From an uncultured Dehalococcoidales bacterium (lineage in GTDB: Bacteria > Chloroflexota > Dehalococcoidia > Dehalococcoidales > UBA2162), in NCBI GenBank assembly GCA_964403625.1, contig CAYOHA010000001.1, forward strand, positions 1 through 31,994: a stretch of 31,994 nucleotides of DNA, given 5' to 3'. Below, in pieces: positions 18,979 through 29,875 of this stretch. The position numbers were made by a program, and so were the translations under genes. Position 1 is the first letter of the stretch. Each line of letters opens with the position of its first letter. The notes under the pieces were generated by a model. It was given only the letters and a program-made list of their open reading frames with translations. It did not search any database and was not told the DNA's origin.

Positions 18979-19787
18979 TTTAAGGCAATATCGCCTATAT
19001 TTACGTCGTTTCTTACTTCGATATTGTCGAGTGTCTTGACCGGATGGCCCTCGGCATGTATTTCCAGGGAATAGATGCCCTCTTTCACATCCTTGAACCA
19101 GAATCCCCCGAAGCTGTCGGTATTAGTGGTATACTCTTCACCGTGGCTCGCACCGGTGAGTACGACGCGGGCATCTGAAATACACGAATCTTTCTGCGCG
19201 TCGTATACATCCCCGGTAATAAACGGTTTCGGTAAACCCAGGTAATATACCCTTGGTTTCGTACTTGAATCGGGCTTTAATAACTCCGCCCGGCCGATCA
19301 ATTCTTTTAGTTCTTCTTCCTCGCCGAATTGTAAAGCCCCGGTAGGGCAGACTTCGACACAACGCGGTTCTTTCCATCCCCTGTCCAGCAGATGGGCGCA
19401 GAAGGTACATTTCTGGGCAATGTTGAGAACCTCGTTGAAATATATCACACCGGGATACGGGCATGCATCGATACAATCCCTCCGTCCAGAGCATTTCCCG
19501 GGGTCAATAATCACTATTCCGTCATCCCGCTTGTATATCGCCTGTTGTTTGCAGGCGCTGATGCAAGGCGCCTCATCACAGTGCTGGCATAGCGTGGGGA
19601 GATAGGTGATTTTAACCTTCGGAACCGTTCCCCTGACCATATCGGTGATCTTCATCCAGAATTGGCCGGTATCCGGCTGCGGCTTGGCATAGGGAGTCCA
19701 GTCGTTACCGACATGTTCATCCTTGCAGGCAATTTGGCAATTATAACAACCATTGCACTTGGCAATATCAATAACTAAGACTTTCGT
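18975..19787 (-). CDS. Fe-S (DmsB-like) small subunit of a pyrogallol transhydroxylase-like enzyme; apparent start codon is ACG
   Basis: The frame is open upstream of ATG 19655 and encodes KVLVIDIAKCNGCYNCQIACKDEH. Further Cys clusters and a C-terminal beta-sandwich ('TNTDSFGGFWF') follow. GGAGGT lies 8 nt before ACG at 19787-19785. Confidence 0.85.
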   Translation of the reverse strand, partial: TKVLVIDIAKCNGCYNCQIACKDEHVGNDWTPYAKPQPDTGQFWMKITDMVRGTVPKVKITYLPTLCQHCDEAPCISACKQQAIYKRDDGIVIIDPGKCSGRRDCIDACPYPGVIYFNEVLNIAQKCTFCAHLLDRGWKEPRCVEVCPTGALQFGEEEELKELIGRAELLKPDSSTKPRVYYLGLPKPFITGDVYDAQKDSCISDARVVLTGASHGEEYTTNTDSFGGFWFKDVKEGIYSLEIHAEGHPVKTLDNIEVRNDVNIGDIALN

Positions 19788-19788
19788 G

Positions 19789-22365
19789 CTACTTTACCTC
19801 CAGGTAAGAATCTACACACGGTCCCGCCGCAGGATGGAAGGTCTTCTTGAACGCTTCAGGGTACCGGTCTCTCAGTTCATCAAGATTAGCCCGCTCAATT
19901 TCAACGAGAAAACCGCTGACCGCCATACCGCAGACATTCCGCGACGTAGTGTTCCGGGGAGTAATAGCATTAATAGCTCCACCCCTGTCAATTTCACCGG
20001 GGATGATCGGATCATATTTCGCTCCGTGGTCCTGGCTGACAACGCCGGGCATTATTCTCTCGGTCACATAAGCCCCGGCCAGCACAATACCCCGTTCGTT
20101 ATAAACCTTGACCACATCACCGTTCCGGATACCTCTTGCGGCGGCATCCCCGGGATTGATCCAGACCGGTTGATACTGGTAGCCGTCCGCTCCCCTGACT
20201 TTACAGGTGGGTATTTCCCGTAACCAGGAGATATCTTCATGGTTGGCATGCACCCCCCAACGGGGATGGTTGGACATCATCAGCAAAGGATATGTTTCAG
20301 CCCTGGGATGTAAAAGGCTTTCCTGGTGCGTCTCGCCGTATGGTATCCAGTGAGGGACCGGTGGCCTTTCATCGTCATCAGGGAAATGCTCCTTCAAACC
20401 GACCGATTCGAATTCTATCTTCCCCGTCGGTGTCAGCAGCGGATTCGCCTCGGGATCTTCGTAGAACGGCCTCAGCCCCGGTGGGTCTTCCTTCCAGTTC
20501 GGCGCTACCGGTACCACCCAGTACTTCTTTTCCTTCACTTCTTCCCACTTGACCATGTTCTGGAGGCGGCAATGATCGAAGCACTCTTTTATCCATTCGT
20601 CTACCGTTTTTCCGCCCGTATATTCCTCGGCCAGGCCCAGTCTTTCCGCGATGGCGCACACGATCTCGTAGTCACTCATGCTTTCGCCGATGGACTCAAT
20701 GCACTTTTCTTCCGGGAACAGTACGGTATATTGCCCGCTTAGGTTATCAAAGGAAATATCATCTTCTTCAAATACGGTATTAGCCGGCAAGATGATATCC
20801 GCCAGCATGCAATCGTTTTCCATCCATGGGTGCTGGGCCATCACAAACTCTATTTTTGGATCCCGGAAGGCTTTTACGATCCGGTGCCCCTCGTTCCAGC
20901 AGGTTACCCAGCAGGGAGAATCCGTCCAGACCATGTGGATCTCCGGATTATTTCCCATGGGGAAGGTATAATGTACAAACTGGTTTTCCCGGTTGGTCGT
21001 TTCGGATTCACACCCGTACCAGCTTATCGGCGGGTTGAGTATCGCATCCGGTACCAGCGTCTTGGGAATGAATGATTCATTGACATCAGCGATGTATCCC
21101 CCGCGGTACCCCGCATGTAGGTCTGGACGCATAACCGCTTTCGGCAGCGGATATTGACCGCGGCGGTCGAACATACCCCATTCAAGCATCTTTACCTGCT
21201 GTACTCCCGGTTTACCCAGTCCCTGCATGGCTAGTAGCAAGATTTGAAGTCTAGCCGGTTCGGTTGAGTACGGCCCTCTGATACCGGGTCCGCCGTTACC
21301 GATAACAACGGAAGTCCTTTTTGATGCCCACAGCTGTGCCAGGGCAGTTGCCGTGCGCGCTGGGACCCCGGTTATCTCGGCAGCCCATTGCGGTGTTTTG
21401 GGGATGCCGTCTTCTTTCCCCAGTACATATTCGGCGAACTTGTCAAAACCGTGCGTATGCGTGGCCACATAGTCTTTATCGTACGTCCCTTCGGTAATCC
21501 ATACGTACGCAATCGCCAGGTATAGCGCCGCATCCGTATTCGGCCTGATGGGAATCCAGCGGTCGGCATGGACTCCTGCGGCATAGTTTAAATCCGGTGC
21601 GATATAAATTTGCTGGATACCCAAGTCAGTGAACCAGTAGCTCAGTCGGCTAGCCAGCTGTCCGCCCCAACCCCAGGGGGTGGTTTCCTGGTCACAGCCC
21701 CAGAACAGCAGCAATTCGGCATTTTCTGCAATGTCCGGCATCACATTCGCCTGCGGCACCTGCTGCCCCACCGGTTCCATTCCCCACACGTGTTTGCCGC
21801 CCCACACCCATCCTTCCCAGCTATCCGGATTCCTTGATTGTAGCGTATAACCCCCCAGCAGCTTCAGCAATCTCCGACCGCAGCCGTGAGAGGCATGAAC
21901 AGTCTTGTTCTCGCCGTGGCAATCCGATTGATACAATATAGCGTTGGTCGTATATGTTTTTTTGATTCTGGTGATTTCATCGGCAATAATATCCAGGGCT
22001 TCATCCCAGGATATCCACTCATACTGGCTTTTTCCCCGGTTCTTGATATTCCGGTTACCCTTGTGGTCAAAATCCACCCTTTTCATCGGGTACCTGATAC
22101 GGTTGGGGGAATAGCATCGCTTTTTATAAGAAAGCGTCAGTGGCGGAATCAGGGTCTTCATTGTAGGTTCAAAAGTCTGGCCGCGCGCTTCGATTTTCCA
22201 GGGATTGAATTCTTTAGGATCGTACATCCAGTCGTAGTGTAGTGGTCTGATCCGGATTATTTTGCCGTCTTTCACATCAACCACGGAAGCGTTGGATCCG
22301 TAGGACTCTCCGCACCAGCTGATGTCTTTAATATATGACTCTTCTCTCGTTGTTTCGTTCTTCAA
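19789..22365 (-). CDS. Molybdopterin oxidoreductase (DMSO reductase family), pyrogallol transhydroxylase large-subunit-like
   Basis: VKDGKIIRI.P, WKIEARG.TF.P, ISWDEA, NPDSWEGW (Ser Mo-ligand motif), ADIILPA, and a C-terminal molydopterin-binding domain. No N-terminal Fe-S motif or Tat signal. TTG start. Confidence 0.88.
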   Translation of the reverse strand: MKNETTREESYIKDISWCGESYGSNASVVDVKDGKIIRIRPLHYDWMYDPKEFNPWKIEARGQTFEPTMKTLIPPLTLSYKKRCYSPNRIRYPMKRVDFDHKGNRNIKNRGKSQYEWISWDEALDIIADEITRIKKTYTTNAILYQSDCHGENKTVHASHGCGRRLLKLLGGYTLQSRNPDSWEGWVWGGKHVWGMEPVGQQVPQANVMPDIAENAELLLFWGCDQETTPWGWGGQLASRLSYWFTDLGIQQIYIAPDLNYAAGVHADRWIPIRPNTDAALYLAIAYVWITEGTYDKDYVATHTHGFDKFAEYVLGKEDGIPKTPQWAAEITGVPARTATALAQLWASKRTSVVIGNGGPGIRGPYSTEPARLQILLLAMQGLGKPGVQQVKMLEWGMFDRRGQYPLPKAVMRPDLHAGYRGGYIADVNESFIPKTLVPDAILNPPISWYGCESETTNRENQFVHYTFPMGNNPEIHMVWTDSPCWVTCWNEGHRIVKAFRDPKIEFVMAQHPWMENDCMLADIILPANTVFEEDDISFDNLSGQYTVLFPEEKCIESIGESMSDYEIVCAIAERLGLAEEYTGGKTVDEWIKECFDHCRLQNMVKWEEVKEKKYWVVPVAPNWKEDPPGLRPFYEDPEANPLLTPTGKIEFESVGLKEHFPDDDERPPVPHWIPYGETHQESLLHPRAETYPLLMMSNHPRWGVHANHEDISWLREIPTCKVRGADGYQYQPVWINPGDAAARGIRNGDVVKVYNERGIVLAGAYVTERIMPGVVSQDHGAKYDPIIPGEIDRGGAINAITPRNTTSRNVCGMAVSGFLVEIERANLDELRDRYPEAFKKTFHPAAGPCVDSYLEVK

Positions 22366-22468
22366 CTGATAATGCCCTCAGCTTTGTTATGGGCAGACCT
22401 GGTTAAGCTTGCCCGATTTTAAGATATATTCCGTACCTACTCTCAGAACAGCTTTCCTGCTAAATACT

Positions 22469-22508
22469 AATATAATACTAAACAAGTAATTAGTCAATAC
22501 ATTGACTA
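22469..22508 (-). promoter_or_regulatory. Promoter of the molybdoenzyme operon overlapped by a palindromic candidate MarR operator
   Basis: Minus strand TTGACT (22497-22492)-17-TATATT (22474-22469). Palindrome tagtcaat-ac-attgacta at 22491-22508. Confidence 0.65.
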
Positions 22509-22562
22509 TTATATCTTGATAGTCGATAAATATACAGGAATTGATTGACAATAATTTAATCG

Positions 22563-23129
22563 ATGAGATACTATTGCTTCATGAATACACCCCCAAAAAC
22601 AGGTGCTAATGATTCTCGCCATCTCGCCACCGTTCAGTATATCGATAATACGGGGAGGTTCCCGCGGGTTAGATTATTCTTCAGGCTGCTTACCTTTGCT
22701 GATACTCTTAATAAATATGCCGGCATAGAAGTAAGGGAAAAAGGTGATAACCGTACCGGACTAGCTGTTTTGCAGATTTTACTCAAATATCCGGATGGTA
22801 TCTCTCAGCAAGAGATAGCCAAGCAAACGGGTAGAACCAAGCAGGCAATTGTGATGGCGATTAACAAACTTGAGCAGCAAAACTACCTTCAAAGACGTTC
22901 GAATAGCTACGATAGAAGGATGAATTCCATTATTATTACCCAAGAGGGGATTGATCATCTCAACGAAGTGTTCCCCCACACTCTGGCCATGTGTGATAGT
23001 GTTTTATCATCTTTTAGTGATGAAGAAATCGATCAATTCATCACCCTCAGTGGAAAATTGACGAAACGGCTGTGGCAGCAGATCGAAGCTGAATCATCGG
23101 AATTTGAACAGCGTGTAGAAGAGGAATAA
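22563..23129 (+). CDS. MarR-family winged-helix regulator (start may be 22581 or later)
   Basis: 'GISQQEIAKQTGRTKQAIVMAINKLEQQNYLQR....DRR...I.IT..G'. Divergent from the molybdoenzyme operon. Confidence 0.9.
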   Translation: MRYYCFMNTPPKTGANDSRHLATVQYIDNTGRFPRVRLFFRLLTFADTLNKYAGIEVREKGDNRTGLAVLQILLKYPDGISQQEIAKQTGRTKQAIVMAINKLEQQNYLQRRSNSYDRRMNSIIITQEGIDHLNEVFPHTLAMCDSVLSSFSDEEIDQFITLSGKLTKRLWQQIEAESSEFEQRVEEE

Positions 23130-24044
23130 CCGAATATTCCCGTGCCCACCATCATGCCGGACTGTGCTTAAGATGAAGGGAAAAGGGGCAGGGTTCAGGC
23201 AGGTGGTGCAGGTTATATCAATTGTCTCCCCTTCTAGAAGTAGGCCTATATCTGATGCGCTGAGATCAACAGAGAGTCCGCGGCCGCACCTGTCGCAAGC
23301 GAAACGCCATGTACCTTGTAGTTCCTTCAGCGAATCCTTAAGGCCAGCCGCAAGTGCCCTTGCCTTGGAGCCGGCGTATTCTTTCCACTGCCCATCTTTC
23401 ATTAGTTCGAGGCGTTTTTCGGCCCCTGCCTGTACTCTCCTCTCAAATTCAGCGGTCACGCGGTGGTTTACCAGTGCATTAACCTCCTTAAGGTAGTAGT
23501 TCTTGAACCAGTCTGGCCACTGATCCCTAGCACCCAACATGGCATCTGCAACTTGCCTTGCGCTGGAATCAATGACCTTTGCTATCTCAGGGGGCCACTC
23601 AGAACCGTTAAGTACTTGTATCAGGCTCTCGTGAACCAGAGTCGGCATTCGGCTTCGCATATCCTTTTCTAGTGCTGCCAGGCATTCTTTTACCCTTCTC
23701 TCAATCTCGCCTTCCTCGGCATGGAGGAATTGGTCTCTTATCTCCTCCAAGGAGAGGTCGCCGCTGTCAGGAAAATTCACTTTAAATTCCTTTAGCGACA
23801 ACAGCTCCTTCTGGGCGTCATCGAGCCTACTGGCCAGCTCCCTAACCTCGCCCTCGCTTTTCGTGAGGCGTGAAGAAAGCTCGTTGTTCGTAGAAACTTC
23901 GCTTCCCAGTTCGGCTATCTTTTTCTTCAGCTGGGCTACTTCTGTTGCCAGACAATCCCTTTCCCGCTTGACCCGAGAGTAACGCCTCAGTGCCTCGAGT
24001 TCCTTTACGTACTTTTCCAGAACTTTAAATTCGTCCTTTATCAC
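23094..24044 (-). CDS. Hypothetical coiled-coil protein with C-terminal CxxC..CxxC zinc ribbon; tail probably junction-derived
   Basis: Heptad-rich N-terminus, CDRC...CTTC, and GGAGGTGA SD before GTG 24044. The 3' end runs 36 bp antisense into marR across the repeat at 23138-23165. Confidence 0.7.
   Translation of the reverse strand: MIKDEFKVLEKYVKELEALRRYSRVKRERDCLATEVAQLKKKIAELGSEVSTNNELSSRLTKSEGEVRELASRLDDAQKELLSLKEFKVNFPDSGDLSLEEIRDQFLHAEEGEIERRVKECLAALEKDMRSRMPTLVHESLIQVLNGSEWPPEIAKVIDSSARQVADAMLGARDQWPDWFKNYYLKEVNALVNHRVTAEFERRVQAGAEKRLELMKDGQWKEYAGSKARALAAGLKDSLKELQGTWRFACDRCGRGLSVDLSASDIGLLLEGETIDITCTTCLNPAPFPFILSTVRHDGGHGNIRLFLFYTLFKFR
23138..23165 (+). repeat. Imperfect direct repeat of the tRNA-Val 3' end/att junction (26973-27000)
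   Basis: 20/28 ungapped identities. Also shares the exact 9-mer gcccaccat (23144-23152 and 26982-26990) on a diagonal shifted by 3 nt. Confidence 0.5.
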
Positions 24045-25722
24045 TACTCACCTCCCCGACGAGCATCAGCAACGCCCAGATGAAGACATCTGCAAGCTCC
24101 ACCTCGGTGTATTCACCAATACTGTAGTATTTCTTGGTAATCTCCCGGGGCGGTCTCAGCTTCGGGTTGAGATTCTTACGGCACCAGGCGAGGCCTATCA
24201 TCAGATATTGCACCACGACCTGGAGACTTAAATCAGCCACCAGGCTGGAGATGGCCTCTTCGCTCAGGGGCAGTTTGACAAAATAGCGGGTGAACTTTAG
24301 CTCCTCTTCCAATTTACCCATCTCCGCCTGCGTATCACCCCACTTCCTGATGTCATCGTGGAGGCCACGACACAGCTTCTTTACCTCAGCCACTGCTGAA
24401 CTCCTCATGCTGTTGATCTGCTTAACTCCTGAATCCCTGAGGGAAGTGATTGACTGCCTTACTTTAGCCAGCTCACCCTGAAGCTCTCTAAGTGCTTGCA
24501 CCTTTTCCCCTAGCTCTTGTGCTACCCTGTCGAGTTCAGCCCTTCTTGCTGTTAGTGCCTTCTCAACACTGCTGAAATCCGCGACTACTTCTTCGAATGA
24601 TTCAGGAGCAACCCCAGCCGCGGTAAGCATTCTCTCATAGGAGACTATTGTCGGCGGTAAAACGCCCTTACGTCGCAGAGATTTTATCGCCGCTATTCCT
24701 TCAGCGATCTGTTCTGAGGTCAGCCCCAGCTTTTGAGCGAGCCCGGCTAGCGATTCCCTCTCTACCGTCAGGCTCTTGACTTCTTCGGAACGTTTTCCCT
24801 TGGTCGCCTCCATTCCAATGACGGCCTCATAGGTTTCGAGATATCCAAAGAATCTATTGACAGCCTCCCCTGTACCGTGCTTCTGCGCTATCTCACTCAG
24901 GCGGTCTCTTAGCCGGTTTAATTGATCCCGTGGAAAACCAATCTCATCCAGACCCCTTAGCGTCTCAGTCTTGTCGGCAACTTGCTTTTCCAGAGTCATC
25001 ATTCTTTCCTGAAGCTGGCTGGTTTCCTCTTTGAGCTTGCTCTTCTCGGTTTCAAGTTGAGCCATCTCCTCCTGGCACTGCTTGACTTGCTCCCCCAACT
25101 CTTGGATGCGATCCTCCTGCTCCTTTTCTTTCACTGCCATGGCATTCAGCCTGCCTTGAAGCCTGACAGACTCTGCTTCAAGGCGGTGGTTTGCTTGAGT
25201 GAGTTCCTCTCCCCTTCCGTGAAGTTTGGTCTCCTCAGCTCTCAGCTCTGCTAGCTCTACCCTCAGCCTCTCTAGCTCGGCAGAGGAGGTCCTGAGGCTT
25301 TCTAAGGTCTGCTCATAGCTAAGACCTTCTTTTTCCAACTTTGACAGTTTGCTTGCCGCCTGGATGATCTGGCTGCGGGAAAATTCTTCCTCGGGAACTG
25401 CTCGGCACATTCTTATCCATGATTCAAGATACGCTGGTTCTACACCCAGCCCGATGAGTTTCTTTAACAAGATGAAGAGGGAAGCAGCTTCAATGATAGT
25501 AATGCCTGCCTTGCGGAGACCAACCGTCAGTTCTCTGAGCTCGTTCACCAAATCAGTCACCTGTTCAAACTGGGGGAATTCTCCGACTCTGAGCGCCTCT
25601 ACTACTGCTGCCACACTTCCTTTTGCTACGCCTGTTTTCTCGGCGATATCATCGTAGGAAAAACCTTCGAAGTAGAGTTTTACCACCTCAAGCTTTCTGT
25701 CTAGAGTTATCTCCCTGCTCAC
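24025..25722 (-). CDS. Hypothetical protein: N-terminal HTH plus long coiled coil
   Basis: 'RKLEVVKLYFEGFSYDDIAEKTGVAKGSV' HTH and an extended Glu/Lys/Leu heptad region. AGGAGG lies 8 nt before GTG 25722 (the ORF track starts at 25740). Confidence 0.75.
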   Translation of the reverse strand: MSREITLDRKLEVVKLYFEGFSYDDIAEKTGVAKGSVAAVVEALRVGEFPQFEQVTDLVNELRELTVGLRKAGITIIEAASLFILLKKLIGLGVEPAYLESWIRMCRAVPEEEFSRSQIIQAASKLSKLEKEGLSYEQTLESLRTSSAELERLRVELAELRAEETKLHGRGEELTQANHRLEAESVRLQGRLNAMAVKEKEQEDRIQELGEQVKQCQEEMAQLETEKSKLKEETSQLQERMMTLEKQVADKTETLRGLDEIGFPRDQLNRLRDRLSEIAQKHGTGEAVNRFFGYLETYEAVIGMEATKGKRSEEVKSLTVERESLAGLAQKLGLTSEQIAEGIAAIKSLRRKGVLPPTIVSYERMLTAAGVAPESFEEVVADFSSVEKALTARRAELDRVAQELGEKVQALRELQGELAKVRQSITSLRDSGVKQINSMRSSAVAEVKKLCRGLHDDIRKWGDTQAEMGKLEEELKFTRYFVKLPLSEEAISSLVADLSLQVVVQYLMIGLAWCRKNLNPKLRPPREITKKYYSIGEYTEVELADVFIWALLMLVGEVSSDKGRI

Positions 25723-25816
25723 TGTTCTTGCCTCCTTCACCGCCTACGGTTTTACTCGGTCTGCTAGTCAAGCTAGCTGCCTAACTGAATGAACAACTGA
25801 ACAAAGTTTTGAACAT

Positions 25817-26752
25817 CTAGGTACTCCTAAGTTCTATCGTATTAGTCTCTTTCTCAATTACGCTATTATTTCGCTTCCCCCTTCTATACGCCAGTTTGAA
25901 GTCCATATTGTCTGCCGGAGAATAGCGACGGTGTGCCTCTTGAATACCACTTTGAGCCATGTTTACATAGATTCGAAGGACATCTAGTGTGGAATGCCCC
26001 ATCATCCTTTGGAGACTGAAGACATCGCCGCCGTTTCTTAAAAACCTGACGGCAGCAGAATGACGTAAAGTATGAGGTGAGCACCTGACTCCTTCTATCC
26101 CAGCTTTCCTGCCGTAATAGGTCATAATCTTCTCCGCCCTATCTTTGGTTAGCGGCCTACCATCCTTGGTGAGGAAGAGGAAGTCGTATTTAGCCATCGC
26201 TGGTTCGGGACGGCATCGGTTAATGTAGCGCCAGAGGAGGCGCTGAACTTGCTTACCTATCGGAATAAGGCGCTCCTTATTACCTTTACCTACAACCTTC
26301 AGCATACCCTCATCCAACCAGAGATTGCCAAGCTTTAGATTACAGAGTTCAGATATCCTAAGGGCCGTATCAAGCAAGGTCAGAATGATGATATAGTCTC
26401 GGTATCCCTCAGCGGTTCTAGTATCTATGGCATTGAGTAACCCCTGGAACTGGGAGTCGGAGAAGGCAGGTATAACCTTTCCTGGTGGTCGTGGAATTTT
26501 CACTCGTTCAAAGGGGTTACACTCTATGATATTTTCGGAGACAAGCCATGATAAAAAGATCCTGAGACTGCGGAGGTAACAGTTAATGGTATACCCCGAA
26601 AGCCCTCTATCCTGGGTATGGTTGAAACGGTGGCCGGAGAAGCACATCTTCTGTTGTAGATAGAGGATGAATGCTCTAATCTGGTGCTGAGTAATCTGAG
26701 TTGCATCGGTGCTTATTCCCTGTGAAGCAAGGAAATCGAGAAAGTAATGCAC
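25817..26752 (-). CDS. Tyrosine recombinase/integrase (XerC/D-like fold); coding frame extends upstream without a canonical start
   Basis: Complete catalytic set: DTALRISEL (R), GKGNKER (K), HTLRH, MMGH, RIY (Y). SAM-like N-terminal domain. Confidence 0.92.
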   Translation of the reverse strand: MHYFLDFLASQGISTDATQITQHQIRAFILYLQQKMCFSGHRFNHTQDRGLSGYTINCYLRSLRIFLSWLVSENIIECNPFERVKIPRPPGKVIPAFSDSQFQGLLNAIDTRTAEGYRDYIIILTLLDTALRISELCNLKLGNLWLDEGMLKVVGKGNKERLIPIGKQVQRLLWRYINRCRPEPAMAKYDFLFLTKDGRPLTKDRAEKIMTYYGRKAGIEGVRCSPHTLRHSAAVRFLRNGGDVFSLQRMMGHSTLDVLRIYVNMAQSGIQEAHRRYSPADNMDFKLAYRRGKRNNSVIEKETNTIELRST

Positions 26753-26872
26753 GCTATTAGTGACAATAGCGATAGCATTAGGGCTCTTTCCTTCAGTAGC
26801 AGCACAAAGCTGATAGCCCTGAAGCAGGCCTCTTATGTCGGTGTAAAAATTTAACGAAGCAAGAGGTCTACC

Positions 26873-26901
26873 TTTACAAAGCTGATTTTTGGGGGTAAAA
26901 T
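26873..26901 (+). promoter_or_regulatory. Sigma70 promoter for tRNA-Val
   Basis: TTTACA-17-TAAAAT, ending 12 nt before the tRNA 5' end. Confidence 0.7.
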
Positions 26902-26913
26902 AGATATGATTTC

Positions 26914-26989
26914 GGGCGGTTAGCTCAGTGGTTGGAGCGCTTGCTTCACACGCAAGAGGTCACAGGTTCAAGTCCTGTACCGCCCACCA
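26914..26989 (+). tRNA. trnV: tRNA-Val(CAC), CCA encoded
   Basis: Acceptor stem GGGCGGT/ACCGCCC, D-arm GCTC/GAGC, anticodon stem CTTGC/GCAAG with loop TTCACAC, T-arm ACAGG-TTCAAGT-CCTGT, ACCA end. 76 nt. Confidence 0.97.
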
Positions 26990-27774
26990 TACCGTACAGT
27001 AGGCAGAACTCCCAATCCTTCTTCCTCCTGGTCGTCCGGAAGTATCGGAAACGTGTATTTAATTCGCCCCTCATTCCCCGTGACCTTGATTTCCTTTACG
27101 AAGCTCTTGATAAATGCTTTCCTTTCCAGCAGGTCGCTGGTATCGATGAACTGATGCAAATCTTCAACGTATTTTCGTACCACCTCCGGACTTACTAACT
27201 CAATCTTATGTTGAGACATAAGACCATCAAGTTCGGATTTCCGTGTTAGCAACCGGTCATGCTGCACTCTTAGCTCCTGCAGACGCGGTTTTAGCAAATG
27301 AAATTCGATATTACCGTTCTCAATGGCATTGTAAAGATTACCCAACCGCTGTTCTACTCTGCCAATCTCACTGATAATGGTATCCATCTCATCCCTGAAT
27401 GAGCTTGAAGCAGCGTCCATCTCCTCATTAATTAAGTCGACCAGTTCGGACAAGTTCCCCGGGGTGAGAATATGTTCCTTGATTTTCGAGATCACCAGCC
27501 GCTCGAATTTAACACTGTTGAGGTAAGGAGTAGAGCACGCCCCTGCTCCCTTCTTCGTCAATGAGCCGCAAATATAGTATGAATACTTACCGCTTTTAGC
27601 ATCCAGCCCTATCAGTGCCTTACCGCAACAGCCGCACCAGGTTAGACCACTCAACAGAAATCTACTGGTTGCCCGTCTCGGATGCTGCTTCTTCGGCGCC
27701 CGATCTCCCATAAGTTCTTGTGTTTTATTAAAGACCTCCTTGCTGATAAGTGCCGGAAATACGTTTTCAACTCT
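26968..27774 (-). pseudogene. Large serine recombinase, C-terminal remnant (end of recombinase domain, Zn ribbon, coiled coil); catalytic N-terminus missing
   Basis: RVENVFPALISKEVF..Q, then LLSGLTWCGCCG...YYICG....AC, then coiled coil. An in-frame TAA at 27777-27775 caps the 5' end. The stop codon lies in the tRNA T-loop. Confidence 0.85.
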
Positions 27775-28036
27775 TTACAAACACGTGTATTTTACAAAAA
27801 AATTATATGACGGTATCGAGTTGGTCGCTAAAATAGAAAACGTGAACAGAAAAAAGGCAGCCGAGTTGCTGATGAAAGCCGGCCTGTCCAGCTATATGGG
27901 AGCGAAACTAACCGAATACATTAAAAACGATCAAGCTGCCAGAGAACAAAACCAAAAAATGAAAATGACTCGCTTCGTAATGATTTTGAGAAGATATGCC
28001 AGAGAACACGGCATGGATATTTCAAAAATTATTTGA
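27775..28036 (+). pseudogene. Small basic helical hypothetical protein, probably 5'-truncated and fused to recombinase antisense sequence
   Basis: The first 35 nt of ORF 27740-28036 are recombinase antisense with no SD. The remainder (YKHVYFTKKLYDGIELVAKIE..RKKAAELL) reads like a real small DNA-binding protein. Confidence 0.45.
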
Positions 28037-28133
28037 TGATGTTGCTACCTGGTTCGCAGGCTTTCCTCTTTAGGTGTTCGATGGCTTCTCGGTGATGATA
28101 GTACACAAGATGGCTTTTTGTGAGGTGAGAATA

Positions 28134-28162
28134 GATTGCACAAATGTCAGATTTGTGCAATC
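28134..28162. repeat. Perfect 12 bp inverted repeat with 5 bp spacer
   Basis: gattgcacaaat-gtcag-atttgtgcaatc. Confidence 0.75.
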
Positions 28163-28636
28163 CACACTCACGTTTAACTGCTATTACACGTGAATTAAAT
28201 CTGGCGTATAATCCATGTTATACGCATTTATTCACAGGTTGATTATCCAACTACCTATTTGATAGCGAGGTTTGAACAATAAGTCATAAGGTAAAATTTC
28301 AAGAACTAGCTCGTTTATCACCATCCCCGAGGCAAGGAATTAAAATAAAAGTCTTTTTATCCAGCTAACATATCCTATAAAGACTTATTCTCTTGTTTTT
28401 CCACTTCTTAATGGACTATAATCAGGTACGTCCTCATAGTTCCCCGGGTTATCGGCCACCCGCTCCTGAGGTTAGAATGCTGGTAACTCTAACTTAACAA
28501 GTGGTATCCCTTCAGGGGGCAGGTCAAGTGTAACAAATACTGCGAGCAAGGCAGTAATACATGTAAAACCCATTAGTAACTCCACAAGGGAAAACTTAAA
28601 CCAGTTTTAGGAAATAGAAAACCAGGGGGCATAGTT

Positions 28637-29875
28637 ATGGCAACGAAAAAGAGCAATCAGGGTAAGGGAAGACTTCCCCCGGTTCTGAAGAGGTTTGAGG
28701 GAAATCCCATTCTTAGGCCAGAACCCAAACACTGGTGGGAGTCAAAAGCGGTCTTCAACCCAGCCGCCATCTACGAAGACAATAAGGTCCATATTCTATA
28801 CCGAGCGCTGGGGGATACTGACACCTCAGTAATTGGATATGCATCCAGCCTCGATGGATTTCACATTGACGAGCGGTTGGACAAACCTGTGTATGTGCCT
28901 CGGGAGCCATTTGAAGGTGTTGGTGCAATACGTCATACTGAGGCTAAGCTATCTGATAACTATACATCCGGAGGAAGTTTTTCCGGTGGGTGTGAAGACC
29001 CCAGACTGACCAGAATTGATGACAGGGTTTATTTAACTTATGTTGCGTATGATGGCTACAGTTCCCCCAGGATAGCATTAAGTTCAATACACATTAATGA
29101 TTTCCTTGGCAAAAATTGGAAATGGAAAAAGCCAGTCCTCATCTCACGACCAGATATTGTGGATAAAAATGCCTGCATCTTGCCGGAAAAAATAGATGGT
29201 AAATATGTCATCTTTCACCGGATTTTTCCCGACATTTTGATTGATTTCGTCGATGATCTAGATTTCGATGGTGAAGGAAGGTGGTTAGAGGGGCAGTTCA
29301 AAATACCGATCAGAGAATCAAGCTCTAGCTGGGATAGCCGTAAGGTTGCTGCTGGACCGCCACCGATGAGAACAAAAGACGGGTGGTTGTTCATCTACCA
29401 CGCTATTGATGATAAGGATGAATTCCGTTATAAGATGGGTGCGATGCTACTTGCTATAAAAGACCCCCCGAGAGTTCTGGCGCGTACCACACACCCCATT
29501 CTGGAACCTTCGGCACGCTATGAGAATGAAGGTTTGAAGTCAGGGGTAATCTATCCGTGCGGCGCTGTAATCTTGGATGACCAGCTATTTGTCTATTATG
29601 GTGGGGCAGATATGGTAGTGTGCGTAGCAACGGCAAAAATGAGCGAATTTATGTCACGGCTAAGCTACGAATGTGAACCGGTACAGGTTAGCGTCACAGT
29701 GAATCCGAGCGCAAATGTCACTATCAAAACAGAGGGACATATCCAGGGATACTGTGTTAAGTGTCATGCGAAGGCGGAGATAAAGAATCCTCACCATCTA
29801 ATTATGAAAAACAAAAGGCATGCAGTTCAGGGTATTTGTCCCAAATGCGGAACCAAAATGGTTAAGTTTGGATAG
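28637..29875 (+). CDS. GH130 glycoside phosphorylase/hydrolase with C-terminal DUF5679-like zinc-ribbon domain
   Basis: NPIL, FNPAA, GCEDPR, DKNA.ILPEKIDG....HR, WDSRKV..G.PP, YH, V.YPCG..., YYGGAD. Tail YCVKC...GICPKCGTKM. Confidence 0.9.
   Translation: MATKKSNQGKGRLPPVLKRFEGNPILRPEPKHWWESKAVFNPAAIYEDNKVHILYRALGDTDTSVIGYASSLDGFHIDERLDKPVYVPREPFEGVGAIRHTEAKLSDNYTSGGSFSGGCEDPRLTRIDDRVYLTYVAYDGYSSPRIALSSIHINDFLGKNWKWKKPVLISRPDIVDKNACILPEKIDGKYVIFHRIFPDILIDFVDDLDFDGEGRWLEGQFKIPIRESSSSWDSRKVAAGPPPMRTKDGWLFIYHAIDDKDEFRYKMGAMLLAIKDPPRVLARTTHPILEPSARYENEGLKSGVIYPCGAVILDDQLFVYYGGADMVVCVATAKMSEFMSRLSYECEPVQVSVTVNPSANVTIKTEGHIQGYCVKCHAKAEIKNPHHLIMKNKRHAVQGICPKCGTKMVKFG

What the first reader, a model, noticed from the sequence alone, without database searches (positions are those of the whole stretch)
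23138..27000. Integrase, cargo and tRNA-Val lie between imperfect direct repeats of the tRNA 3' junction
Seen: tcccgtgcccaccatcatgccggactgt (23138-23165) versus tcctgtaccgcccaccataccgtacagt (26973-27000), 20/28 ungapped. The left copy lies 8 bp after the marR stop, exactly where catabolic DNA gives way to cargo and where the 316 aa ORF degenerates into a tail overlapping marR (STVRH-DGGH, versus the recombinase's PTVRY-GGR). The right copy has a CTGTAC/GTACAG inverted repeat around CCACCAT. Inference: either a 3.8 kb unit carrying its own tRNA and promoter, or a rearrangement by one of the recombinases at a pseudo-att site. tRNA-Val(CAC) is normally dispensable where a UAC isoacceptor exists, so it could be mobile.
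Basis: partly seen in the sequence, partly recalled or inferred. Interest (0 to 1): 0.65.

Follow-up and report, generated by a model that had tools for sequence, protein, structure and literature searches.

The report
Two decayed mobile elements flanking tRNA-Val
The 3.8 kb between the two look-alike sequences is not a small mobile unit with its own tRNA: it is the cut-off stump of a much larger phage-like element beside a tRNA-Val gene that serves as an integration hot spot, with the stump of a second, serine-recombinase element on the tRNA's other side.

Summary
The two 28-mers match 20/28, share the exact 9-mer GCCCACCAT (found only at these two places in the window), and the left copy lies exactly on a breakpoint that I defined independently.

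The "mobile 3.8 kb unit" reading does not hold. About 100 homologues of the 316 aa protein continue for 20 more residues after STVRH. In intact relatives at least five further element genes follow (a 225 aa integrase-like protein, a sliding-clamp-like protein, and capsid genes elsewhere). DNA homology to those elements stops at 23154/23155. Intact gene copies about 99% identical (3 differences in 296 nt in the best case) occur in six other metagenomes; in the three laid across marR, marR is absent.

The integrase is a hybrid of two paralogous integrase genes and lacks the family's start codon. Seven runs gave no contig across the hybrid joint, so it may be strain-specific or an assembly artefact.

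The right copy is the attL of a large serine recombinase, of which only residues 251-518 remain. Genes of this family characteristically run into a tRNA 3' end, as dsiB does at ssrA in Dehalococcoides.

The left copy is most likely a deletion scar that keeps about 20 nt of a second attL of this type. Chance cannot be excluded. This is ordinary genome decay at a tRNA hot spot, with some instructive details.

The parts
22563..23129 (+). marR-family regulator. It is the last gene of the catabolic block; nothing in 1-23133 encodes a mobility function.
   Evidence: Pfam MarR_2/MarR. Pfam on the left 19 kb finds only catabolic, transport and regulator genes. A relative, L021, is 86% identical over 18987-23133 and then diverges.
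23134..23154 (.). Orphan 21 nt (ATATTCCCGTGCCCACCATCA) between the end of marR-locus homology and the start of phage-element homology. It ends like a tRNA 3' end (GCCCACCA). Read on the minus strand it continues the 316 aa frame as D-G-G-H-G-N-I.
   Evidence: Homology limits. 9-mer GCCCACCAT at 23144-23152. Serine recombinases ending ...IVHDGGR/P exist (P0160, P0213). Back-translated, such an ending would give GCCCACCATCATG on the + strand, which is what stands here.
23138..23165 (+). It is the orphan tRNA-like part (to 23154) plus native codons T-V-R-H of the phage gene (23155-23165).
23155..24044 (-). Gene for the 317 aa coiled-coil/zinc-ribbon protein of a phage-like element, cut after codon H297. 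The last 20 family codons are missing. The annotated ORF runs on to 23094 through foreign sequence.
   Evidence: 98 homologues, nearly all 317 aa, ending ...STV(R/Q)HKVVSLSLGGLLELYMGSAPP. blastn homology to L003-L013 stops at 23154/23155.
24025..25740 (-). 571 aa protein with an N-terminal HTH and a long coiled coil. It is the conserved partner (563-565 aa) that stands upstream of the 317 aa gene in most related elements fetched (it is absent in L016).
   Evidence: Pfam/PHROG give only weak HTH and coiled-coil hits. Synteny in L003-L013 and L026.
25817..26835 (-). Tyrosine integrase, a hybrid. The C-terminal about 65 residues are intB-like and the rest is intA-like, with the crossover in the shared ATGTCTTCAGTCT (26013-26025). 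The family ATG is ATA here. The first usable start is GTG at 26752 (311 aa), which removes about 27 conserved N-terminal residues.
   Evidence: Alignment with both L003 integrases. Pfam Phage_integrase 5e-36. The joint is not confirmed by any Logan contig, and parental forms are seen in X2 and X3.
26859..26868 (+). Second copy of GCAAGAGGTC (tRNA-Val nt 39-48), 93 nt upstream of the copy inside the tRNA and next to the integrase gene. It is a candidate core site of the intA-type integrase.
   Evidence: The same 10-mer pair with the same 93 nt spacing occurs in the window, L003, L024/L025 and L026. It is absent upstream of the tRNA in L018, which has no integrase. The tRNA fragment in L027 ends exactly at it.
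26914..26989 (+). tRNA-Val(CAC), complete, with the CCA end encoded.
   Evidence: ARAGORN. Rfam tRNA 72 bits.
26973..27000 (+). It is the attL of the serine-recombinase element: the tRNA 3' end plus the P' arm that encodes the recombinase's last residues.
   Evidence: The same junction stands in front of a full-length recombinase in L018. L019/L020 carry an attP-like version: a 23 nt tRNA 3' fragment between inverted CTACTGTA/TACAGTAG arms.
26968..27774 (-). 3' half (residues 251-518 of about 518) of a large serine recombinase gene. The catalytic resolvase domain is missing, and the stop codon lies inside the tRNA.
   Evidence: Pfam finds Zn_ribbon_recom only. tblastn of P0100 matches residues 251-518 to 27774-26971 at 82%. 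Full-length homologues carry Resolvase + Recombinase + Zn_ribbon_recom.
27775..28636 (.). About 860 nt of non-coding or unassignable DNA between the recombinase breakpoint and the GH130 genes. It holds a 98 aa ORF with no family match and a 36 nt patch (28276-28311) of very high metagenomic depth.

Best explanation
tRNA-Val(CAC) is an integration hot spot, flanked here by the remains of two different elements.

The 5' side (shown). 23155-26913 is the integrase-proximal stump of a phage-like element of Dehalococcoidales. In three other element copies (L003/L004/L005, L024/L025, L026) this element has its intA-type tyrosine integrase gene divergent from this same tRNA. Intact relatives continue with a second integrase, the 563 aa and 317 aa proteins, a 225 aa integrase-like zinc-ribbon protein, a sliding-clamp-like protein and more. 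Related elements that lack this integrase end carry capsid genes. In the window everything beyond codon 297 of the 317 aa gene is gone.

The integrase (shown in the assembly, not confirmed). The two integrase genes are fused into one hybrid gene without the normal start codon.

The 3' side (shown). 26968-27774 is the C-terminal half of a large serine recombinase. Its family characteristically runs its last codons (..VLPTVRYGG..) into a tRNA 3' end, so the right repeat is that element's attL.

The left junction (inferred, about 45%). The about 20 nt next to marR are the last trace of a second attL of the same kind, from a recombinase subtype ending ..VHDGG, which would give GCCCACCATCATG on the + strand. 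A deletion with CAT/ATG microhomology, or a recombinase acting on a look-alike site, fused that trace to the H297 codon. The event removed that recombinase gene and the distal part of the phage-like element.

Consequence. The two 'direct repeats' resemble each other because both derive from serine-recombinase/tRNA-end junctions. They are not the ends of a 3.8 kb unit, and nothing indicates that the interval can still move.
For: - Truncation. The family continues 20 aa past STVRH, and DNA homology stops at 23154/23155.
- Larger element: searches give the gene orders. One search matches the 225 aa protein to PHROG integrase families and the 392 aa protein to a DNA polymerase processivity factor. 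SU10_MCP capsid hits are in L006-L011.
- The element exists independently of this locus: contigs that join the intact 3' end of the gene to sequence 96-99% identical to the window occur in X2, X3, X4, X7, X8 and X9. In X7-X9 marR has zero depth.
- The marR|316' junction is real: independent Logan contigs L001 and L002 and a 683 nt X2 contig cross it.
- intA next to tRNA-Val: the arrangement recurs in L003/L004/L005, L024/L025 and L026, each with different DNA on the tRNA's 3' side.
- Hybrid integrase.
- Serine recombinase: the remnant covers residues 251-518 only. 102 of 120 homologues end in V-(R/Q)-(Y/H)-G-G followed by tails of variable length that read like antisense tRNA. L018 has a full-length gene overlapping an identical tRNA-Val, with housekeeping genes on the other side of the tRNA.
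- VHDGG subtype.
- Published precedent: dsiB overlapping ssrA or its 20 bp direct repeat, with tandem islands, in Dehalococcoides (PMC3146451).
- Significance of the resemblance.
Against: - No second serine recombinase gene and no second tRNA is present in the 32 kb contig. The proposed second attL rests on about 20 nt.
- The tRNA-like part matches tRNA-Val only 12/17 ungapped, or 13/14 with a 3 nt gap.
- The outer part of the recombinase P' arm is not matched by the phage gene: 8/11 for the inner bases, then about 2/9.
- The VHDGG subtype is known only from two protein sequences.
- The relative L021 diverges 4 nt after the marR stop, but its contig ends 70 nt after the stop, so the ancestral state downstream of marR is unknown.
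- The continuity of the contig across the hybrid integrase is unconfirmed.
Confidence: 0.75

Rival explanations
1. Chance resemblance. The left junction is a plain illegitimate deletion, or carries filler DNA. Its likeness to the tRNA/recombinase junction has no mechanistic meaning.
For: - The scan covers very many windows, so a coincidence at the 1e-3 to 1e-4 level will turn up somewhere.
- The similarity is short and C-rich.
- Part of it (TGCCGGACTGT) is simply the conserved STVRH codons of the phage gene.
- L021 shows weak (12/21) possible homology through TGCC, so part of the orphan may be native marR-downstream DNA.
Against: - P(>=20/28) is about 2e-7 per position.
- The exact 9-mer occurs only at the two junctions.
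- The match is in register with an independently defined breakpoint.
- The orphan reads HDGG in frame, as a known recombinase subtype ends.
Confidence: 0.3
2. 23138-27000 is a discrete integrative unit carrying integrase, cargo, tRNA-Val and its promoter, bounded by att-derived direct repeats and able to excise.
For: - The direct orientation of the two copies.
- The integrase is linked to the tRNA and to a conserved tRNA upstream region in four element copies (the window and three others), with different DNA beyond the tRNA 3' end. The tRNA may therefore travel with the full-length element.
Against: - The 'cargo' gene is truncated, and the rest of the element is missing.
- The integrase lacks its start codon and is a hybrid.
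- The candidate core of this integrase family lies in the anticodon stem/variable loop, not at the CCA end.
- No empty site or circle joint appears in the run contigs.
- The marR junction is the only continuation after marR in L001, L002 and X2.
Confidence: 0.05
3. Assembly chimera. The metagenome-assembled contig joins a marR-side stump to an intact copy of the element at tRNA-Val through near-identical repeat sequence, so the interval as drawn does not exist in one genome.
For: - Intact copies 96-99% identical coexist in the same samples.
- The hybrid integrase joint lies in a 28 nt stretch (25998-26025) that the intA-type contig of X3 and the intB-type contig of X2 both share with the window.
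- No contig from the 7 runs examined spans that stretch, while X2 and X3 show the unrecombined genes at about the host's depth.
Against: - The marR|316' junction itself is confirmed by three independent contigs.
- Run X4 has contigs identical to the window on both sides of the element and within it.
- Other hybrid integrase joints exist in X4, so such recombinants occur naturally.
Confidence: 0.15
4. The catabolic block is the cargo of a serine-recombinase island more than 23 kb long. That island inserted into a look-alike site inside the phage gene, and the left copy is its attR.
For: - The tRNA-like motif has the orientation expected for the distal repeat of an island lying to the left.
- The inner bases of the phage site resemble the recombinase's P' arm (8/11).
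- Dehalococcoides islands of this kind carry catabolic genes and regulators.
Against: - No recombinase, tRNA or other mobility gene lies in 1-23133.
- L021 shares the catabolic genes but has no clear terminal repeat.
- The asymmetry of the assembly graph is explained by independent circulation of the phage-like element.
- The one odd contig found (X1) does not show the predicted reciprocal junction.
Confidence: 0.08

Closest known systems
Dehalococcoides ssrA-specific genomic islands with the serine recombinase DsiB (McMurdie et al. 2011, PMC3146451; read)
   Same: A large serine recombinase gene lies on the reverse strand directly next to attL. Its 3' end overlaps the small-RNA gene or that gene's direct repeat, so the C-terminus and stop codon vary with the junction. 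Islands accumulate at one RNA gene. The host lineage is the same class.
   Different: The target here is tRNA-Val (other tRNAs for other family members), not tmRNA. The window copy is only the C-terminal half. No DsiA, ParB or Mom-like module genes are seen; L018 and L019 have a 292-303 aa partner ORF instead. No distal direct repeat was found. I did not test sequence relatedness to DsiB.
Cryptic (decayed) prophages and islands at tRNA genes (general knowledge; integration sublocations as in Williams 2002, Nucleic Acids Res, from memory)
   Same: An integrase next to a tRNA, a truncated element, loss of distal genes, and a tRNA used repeatedly as a target.
   Different: The tyrosine-integrase element lies on the 5' side of the tRNA, divergent from it. 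The tRNA's own upstream region is conserved with the element, and a 10 nt copy of tRNA nt 39-48 stands beside the integrase. Classical elements lie 3' of the tRNA and restore its 3' part.
Secondary-site (pseudo-att) recombination by large serine integrases such as phiC31 (general knowledge, from memory)
   Same: It would explain a junction in which a recombinase-type half-site is joined to a look-alike sequence inside an unrelated gene.
   Different: Nothing here shows catalysis. The likeness covers only the inner about 11 nt of the half-site. The resident recombinase gene is truncated.

Membership tests
   The left end cuts a conserved gene at codon 297. Relatives continue with at least 5 more genes.
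   The repeat is real and statistically unusual. However, the candidate core of this tyrosine integrase family is GCAAGAGGTC in the anticodon stem/variable loop. The CCA-end junction belongs to the serine recombinase family.
   The gene is an intA/intB hybrid. The family ATG is ATA here, and the first start codon removes about 27 conserved residues. The residues around HxxR and the C-terminal Y region are retained.
   No such joint appears in Logan contigs of the runs laid. Depth is low (3-9x) and contigs drop rare forms, so absence is weak evidence.
Large serine recombinase islands integrating at the 3' end of a tRNA or tmRNA gene (DsiB-like) | Resolvase + Recombinase + Zn_ribbon_recom architecture. 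| tested here: not met
   The window copy has only Zn_ribbon_recom and the C-terminal coiled coil, residues 251-518. Full-length homologues have all three domains. The window copy is therefore a remnant of a member, not a functional member.
Large serine recombinase islands integrating at the 3' end of a tRNA or tmRNA gene (DsiB-like) | The recombinase gene lies antisense and adjacent to the RNA gene, with its 3' end overlapping the RNA gene's 3' end (attL). | tested here: met
   The overlap is 22 nt (26968-26989). The arrangement is identical in L018. 102 of 120 homologues end in the junction motif.
Large serine recombinase islands integrating at the 3' end of a tRNA or tmRNA gene (DsiB-like) | A direct repeat of the RNA 3' end at the distal boundary (attR). 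| tested here: not met
   There is no second copy of the 22 nt tRNA end with up to 3 mismatches in the window. The island is truncated at 27775.
Large serine recombinase islands integrating at the 3' end of a tRNA or tmRNA gene (DsiB-like) | Demonstrated site-specific integration or excision. | not testable with these tools
   Needs a recombination assay or population data with both occupied and empty sites.
Phage-like integrative element of Dehalococcoidales (563 aa / 317 aa / 225 aa integrase-like / clamp-like module) | The conserved gene pair of 563-571 aa plus 317 aa, in the same order and overlap. | tested here: met
   81-94% DNA identity to L003-L013 over 23155-25711. Synteny.
Phage-like integrative element of Dehalococcoidales (563 aa / 317 aa / 225 aa integrase-like / clamp-like module) | The downstream module (225 aa integrase-like, 170 aa, 223-259 aa, clamp-like protein of about 390 aa) and, in some members, capsid genes. 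| tested here: not met
   Absent from the window: homology ends at 23154/23155 and marR follows.

The most novel reading that the evidence does not exclude
The left junction records a large serine recombinase of the tRNA-end-specific family acting on a secondary site. On this reading, a look-alike of its P' arm inside a phage gene (codons TVRH) was recombined with an attL of a ..VHDGG-type family member next to marR. That would make these recombinases active sculptors of the hot spot, deleting or fusing neighbouring elements.

A related, separate possibility concerns the intA-type elements. They may integrate in the anticodon-stem region of tRNA-Val and supply the promoter and 5' half, which would explain why they sit on the tRNA's 5' side.
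Probability: 0.25. Interest if true: 0.5.

Novelty: new member of a known kind. Interest (0 to 1): 0.3.

Why it matters
For annotation:
- The 316 aa ORF should be marked as a 3'-truncated pseudogene-like remnant.
- The integrase should be marked as a hybrid without its start codon, and unconfirmed.
- The 247 aa ORF should be marked as the C-terminal half of a serine recombinase.
- None of them is live 'cargo'.

For biology:
- The finding extends to tRNA genes the Dehalococcoides ssrA-island principle, in which a serine recombinase gene has its end embedded in the target RNA gene. The family is large and environmentally widespread in Dehalococcoidales.
- A phage-like element about 99% identical over the stretch compared circulates in sediment, soil and groundwater samples.
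- Two leads could be worth a specialist's time: the 5'-side position of the intA elements with a duplicated 10 nt tRNA segment, and the possible secondary-site event.

Otherwise this is ordinary decay of mobile DNA at a tRNA hot spot.

Tried and rejected
I therefore made no search of the window's own genome for second copies, tRNA-Val copy number or other recombinases.

Searches that gave little:
- The IMG/VR scan with the 317 aa family alignment found nothing.
- The species-representative genomes gave only two loci.
- The exact-protein look-up of the integrase found no record.

Ideas tested and dropped or left open:
- Empty site. The one marR relative on record (L021) ends 70 nt after the marR stop, and its tail matches nothing in the window.
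- A repeat of the tRNA end to the right of the recombinase (attR): none.
- Rfam, E-value mode, 22000-29500: only the tRNA.
- The orphan as a complete tRNA 3' half. I rejected this because GGAAT..CCGA belongs to the marR end, which L021 shares.
- A P-arm match between the left copy and the attP-like site of L019: none.
- A catabolic island inserted into the phage gene. This lost its main support once X7-X9 showed the intact element without marR. The reciprocal junction was not found; the odd X1 contig matches nothing held.
- A contig across the hybrid integrase joint: none in the 7 runs examined.
- Deriving the rearranged tRNA fragment of L027 from the common arrangement by one inversion or integration step. 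I could not do this.

Full report
**1. Layout**

ORF listing, ARAGORN and Pfam give the following order:
- a pyrogallol-hydroxytransferase-like molybdoenzyme (19789-22365, minus strand);
- marR (22563-23129, plus strand);
- three minus-strand ORFs of 316 aa (23094-24044, no family), 571 aa (24025-25740, HTH plus coiled coil) and 311 aa (25817-26752, tyrosine integrase);
- tRNA-Val(CAC) (26914-26989, plus strand);
- a 247 aa minus-strand ORF with only the zinc-ribbon domain of large serine recombinases (26968-27711);
- about 860 nt without assignable genes;
- two GH130 genes.

The left 23 kb carry catabolic, transport and regulator genes only.

**2. The observation**

The two 28-mers match 20/28, and the next best match in the window is 19/28. 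In random sequences with the window's dinucleotide statistics, a 20/28 match to the right copy has a probability of about 2e-7 per position, or 0.013 per window. The shared 9-mer GCCCACCAT occurs only at these two places.

**3. The left copy is a true breakpoint**

The 316 aa protein has 98 homologues, nearly all 317 aa, from Dehalococcoidales/Chloroflexota metagenomes. They share ...PFPFILSTV(R/Q)H and then continue KVVSLSLGGLLELYMGSAPP. The window diverges immediately after H297 into DGGHGNIRLFLFYTLFKFR*. 85 of the 98 carry the motif, and all 85 have at least 15 further residues.

At DNA level, homology to nine related loci stops at 23154/23155. On the marR side, a relative 86% identical over 18987-23133 diverges 4 nt after the marR stop. 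This leaves a 21 nt orphan, ATATTCCCGTGCCCACCATCA, which belongs to neither side.

**4. What the interval is a piece of**

In intact relatives the 563 aa and 317 aa genes are followed by:
- a 225 aa integrase-like protein with a zinc ribbon;
- proteins of 170 aa and 223-259 aa;
- a sliding-clamp-like protein of about 390 aa;
- further genes.

One set of loci has SU10-type capsid genes upstream, and another has Ku and a ligase. The window therefore keeps only the integrase-proximal 3.8 kb of an element of at least 9 kb.

Logan contigs join the intact 3' end of the gene to sequence 96-99% identical to the window in runs X2, X3, X4, X7, X8 and X9. In X7-X9 the marR region has zero depth. The element thus circulates independently of this locus, and the stump is young.

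The marR|316' junction itself is crossed by three independent contigs: L001, L002 and one from X2. L001 ends exactly 30 nt past the breakpoint, as expected for a k=31 graph branch.

**5. The integrase**

The window gene is intA-like from its N-terminus to ..FLRNGGDVFSLQRM and intB-like from there on. The comparison is with the two integrases that stand 1.76 kb apart in L003 and L026, and the crossover lies in ATGTCTTCAGTCT. The family's ATG is ATA here. The first start codon is GTG at 26752.

No contig from the seven runs examined spans the joint. X2 and X3 contain the unrecombined genes at depths like the host's. Another hybrid joint exists in X4. The fusion is therefore either a strain-specific deletion or an assembly artefact. 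Either way, '3.8 kb' is not a stable unit length.

**6. The tRNA and the tyrosine-integrase element**

The intA-type integrase is divergently adjacent to tRNA-Val(CAC), with the intergenic region conserved, in four element copies: the window, L003/L004/L005, L024/L025 and L026. The DNA beyond the tRNA's 3' end differs in each copy where it is held. L018 has an identical tRNA-Val with housekeeping genes on its 5' side and no integrase.

In all four copies the 10-mer GCAAGAGGTC (tRNA nt 39-48) recurs 93 nt upstream, beside the integrase. In L027 a tRNA-Val fragment ends exactly at this 10-mer. This points to the anticodon stem/variable loop, not the CCA end, as this integrase's site. It leaves open whether the full-length element carries or rebuilds the tRNA. 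I could not resolve this because no locus held both ends.

**7. The right copy**

The 247 aa ORF corresponds to residues 251-518 of full-length homologues of about 515 aa that carry all three serine recombinase domains. Homology ends at 27774/27775.

102 of 120 homologues end in V-(R/Q)-(Y/H)-G-G followed by tails of 1, 4, 16 or more residues (R*, RYRT*, RYWT*, RYRTRTCD.., PFWTRTRDLSLIRTAL). These are translations of antisense tRNA. L018 shows the same junction with a full-length gene. L019/L020 show an attP-like site: a 23 nt tRNA 3' fragment between inverted CTACTGTA/TACAGTAG arms.

This is the arrangement described for dsiB at ssrA in Dehalococcoides, where the integrase gene overlaps attL and its stop codon is unclear (PMC3146451). 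The right copy is thus attL of a serine-recombinase element that is itself truncated.

**8. Why the two copies resemble each other**

The right part of the left copy (TGCCGGACTGT) is the native, conserved TVRH coding sequence of the phage gene. It matches the recombinase's P' arm at 8 of 11 positions and not beyond. The left part is the orphan.

Two family members end ..IVHDGGR/P. An attL of that subtype would read GCCCACCATCATG on the plus strand, which is exactly the window's sequence and needs no gap.

My preferred reading (about 45%) has three steps:
- a second element of this family once sat next to marR;
- a deletion, with CAT/ATG microhomology or catalysed at the look-alike site, fused its last codons to H297;
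- that event removed the recombinase gene and the distal part of the phage-like element.

The alternatives are chance (about 30%, given how many windows the scan reads), templated filler, or an island insertion into the phage gene (disfavoured).

**9. Verdict**

The 'mobile unit with its own tRNA' is not supported. 'Rearrangement at an att-like site' is plausible but unproven. The region is a graveyard of two integrative elements at tRNA-Val, which is a known kind of thing.

Limits:
- the run data were low-depth contigs only;

Noticed in passing
window 26859-26868 and 26952-26961; L003, L024, L025, L026, L027: The 10-mer GCAAGAGGTC (tRNA-Val nt 39-48) is repeated 93 nt upstream, next to the intA-type integrase, in every genome with this integrase-tRNA pair. 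In L027 a tRNA-Val 5' fragment in the opposite orientation ends exactly at it. It is a candidate core site. The element sits on the 5' side of the tRNA, which is unusual.
   Followed up: partly
window 25998-26025 (integrase): The hybrid integrase joint lies in a stretch that the intA-type contig of X3 and the intB-type contig of X2 both share with the window. No independent contig spans it, and both parental genes are present in X2 and X3. It may be a misassembly or a strain-specific deletion.
   Followed up: partly
window 28276-28311: A 36 nt patch with metagenomic contig depth of 130-530 in four runs. Many different contigs start and end at its borders. It has no Rfam or tRNA match. It may be a widely shared short motif or a repeat end.
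   Followed up: no
L019 4240-4300 (and L020): A full-length serine recombinase followed only by a 23 nt tRNA 3' fragment between inverted CTACTGTA/TACAGTAG arms. This looks like an unrecombined attP. The same locus carries the 225 aa integrase-like gene of the phage-like elements. The serine and tyrosine integration modules may therefore be alternative front ends of one element family.
   Followed up: partly
L003 10913 (run X1 contig): A 292 nt contig joins unknown sequence (..CAGCTATTTGGGGCTACGGGTAGAGAGACT) to the last 14 codons of the 317 aa gene plus the start of the 225 aa gene. This is another truncation near the same place in a related element.
   Followed up: partly
L024 8001-12897: A short (about 5.7 kb) version of the element on a 205 kb contig. 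It holds intA, a 144 aa ORF, a second integrase, proteins of 230 aa and 80 aa, the integrase-like zinc-ribbon protein and a 199 aa protein, then host genes. It thus carries three tyrosine-recombinase-like genes in one small element. No terminal repeat was found.
   Followed up: partly
window 23094-23153: The truncated 316 aa ORF reads 20 codons into foreign DNA and overlaps marR antisense by 36 nt. If it is expressed, transcription would run convergent into marR.
   Followed up: no
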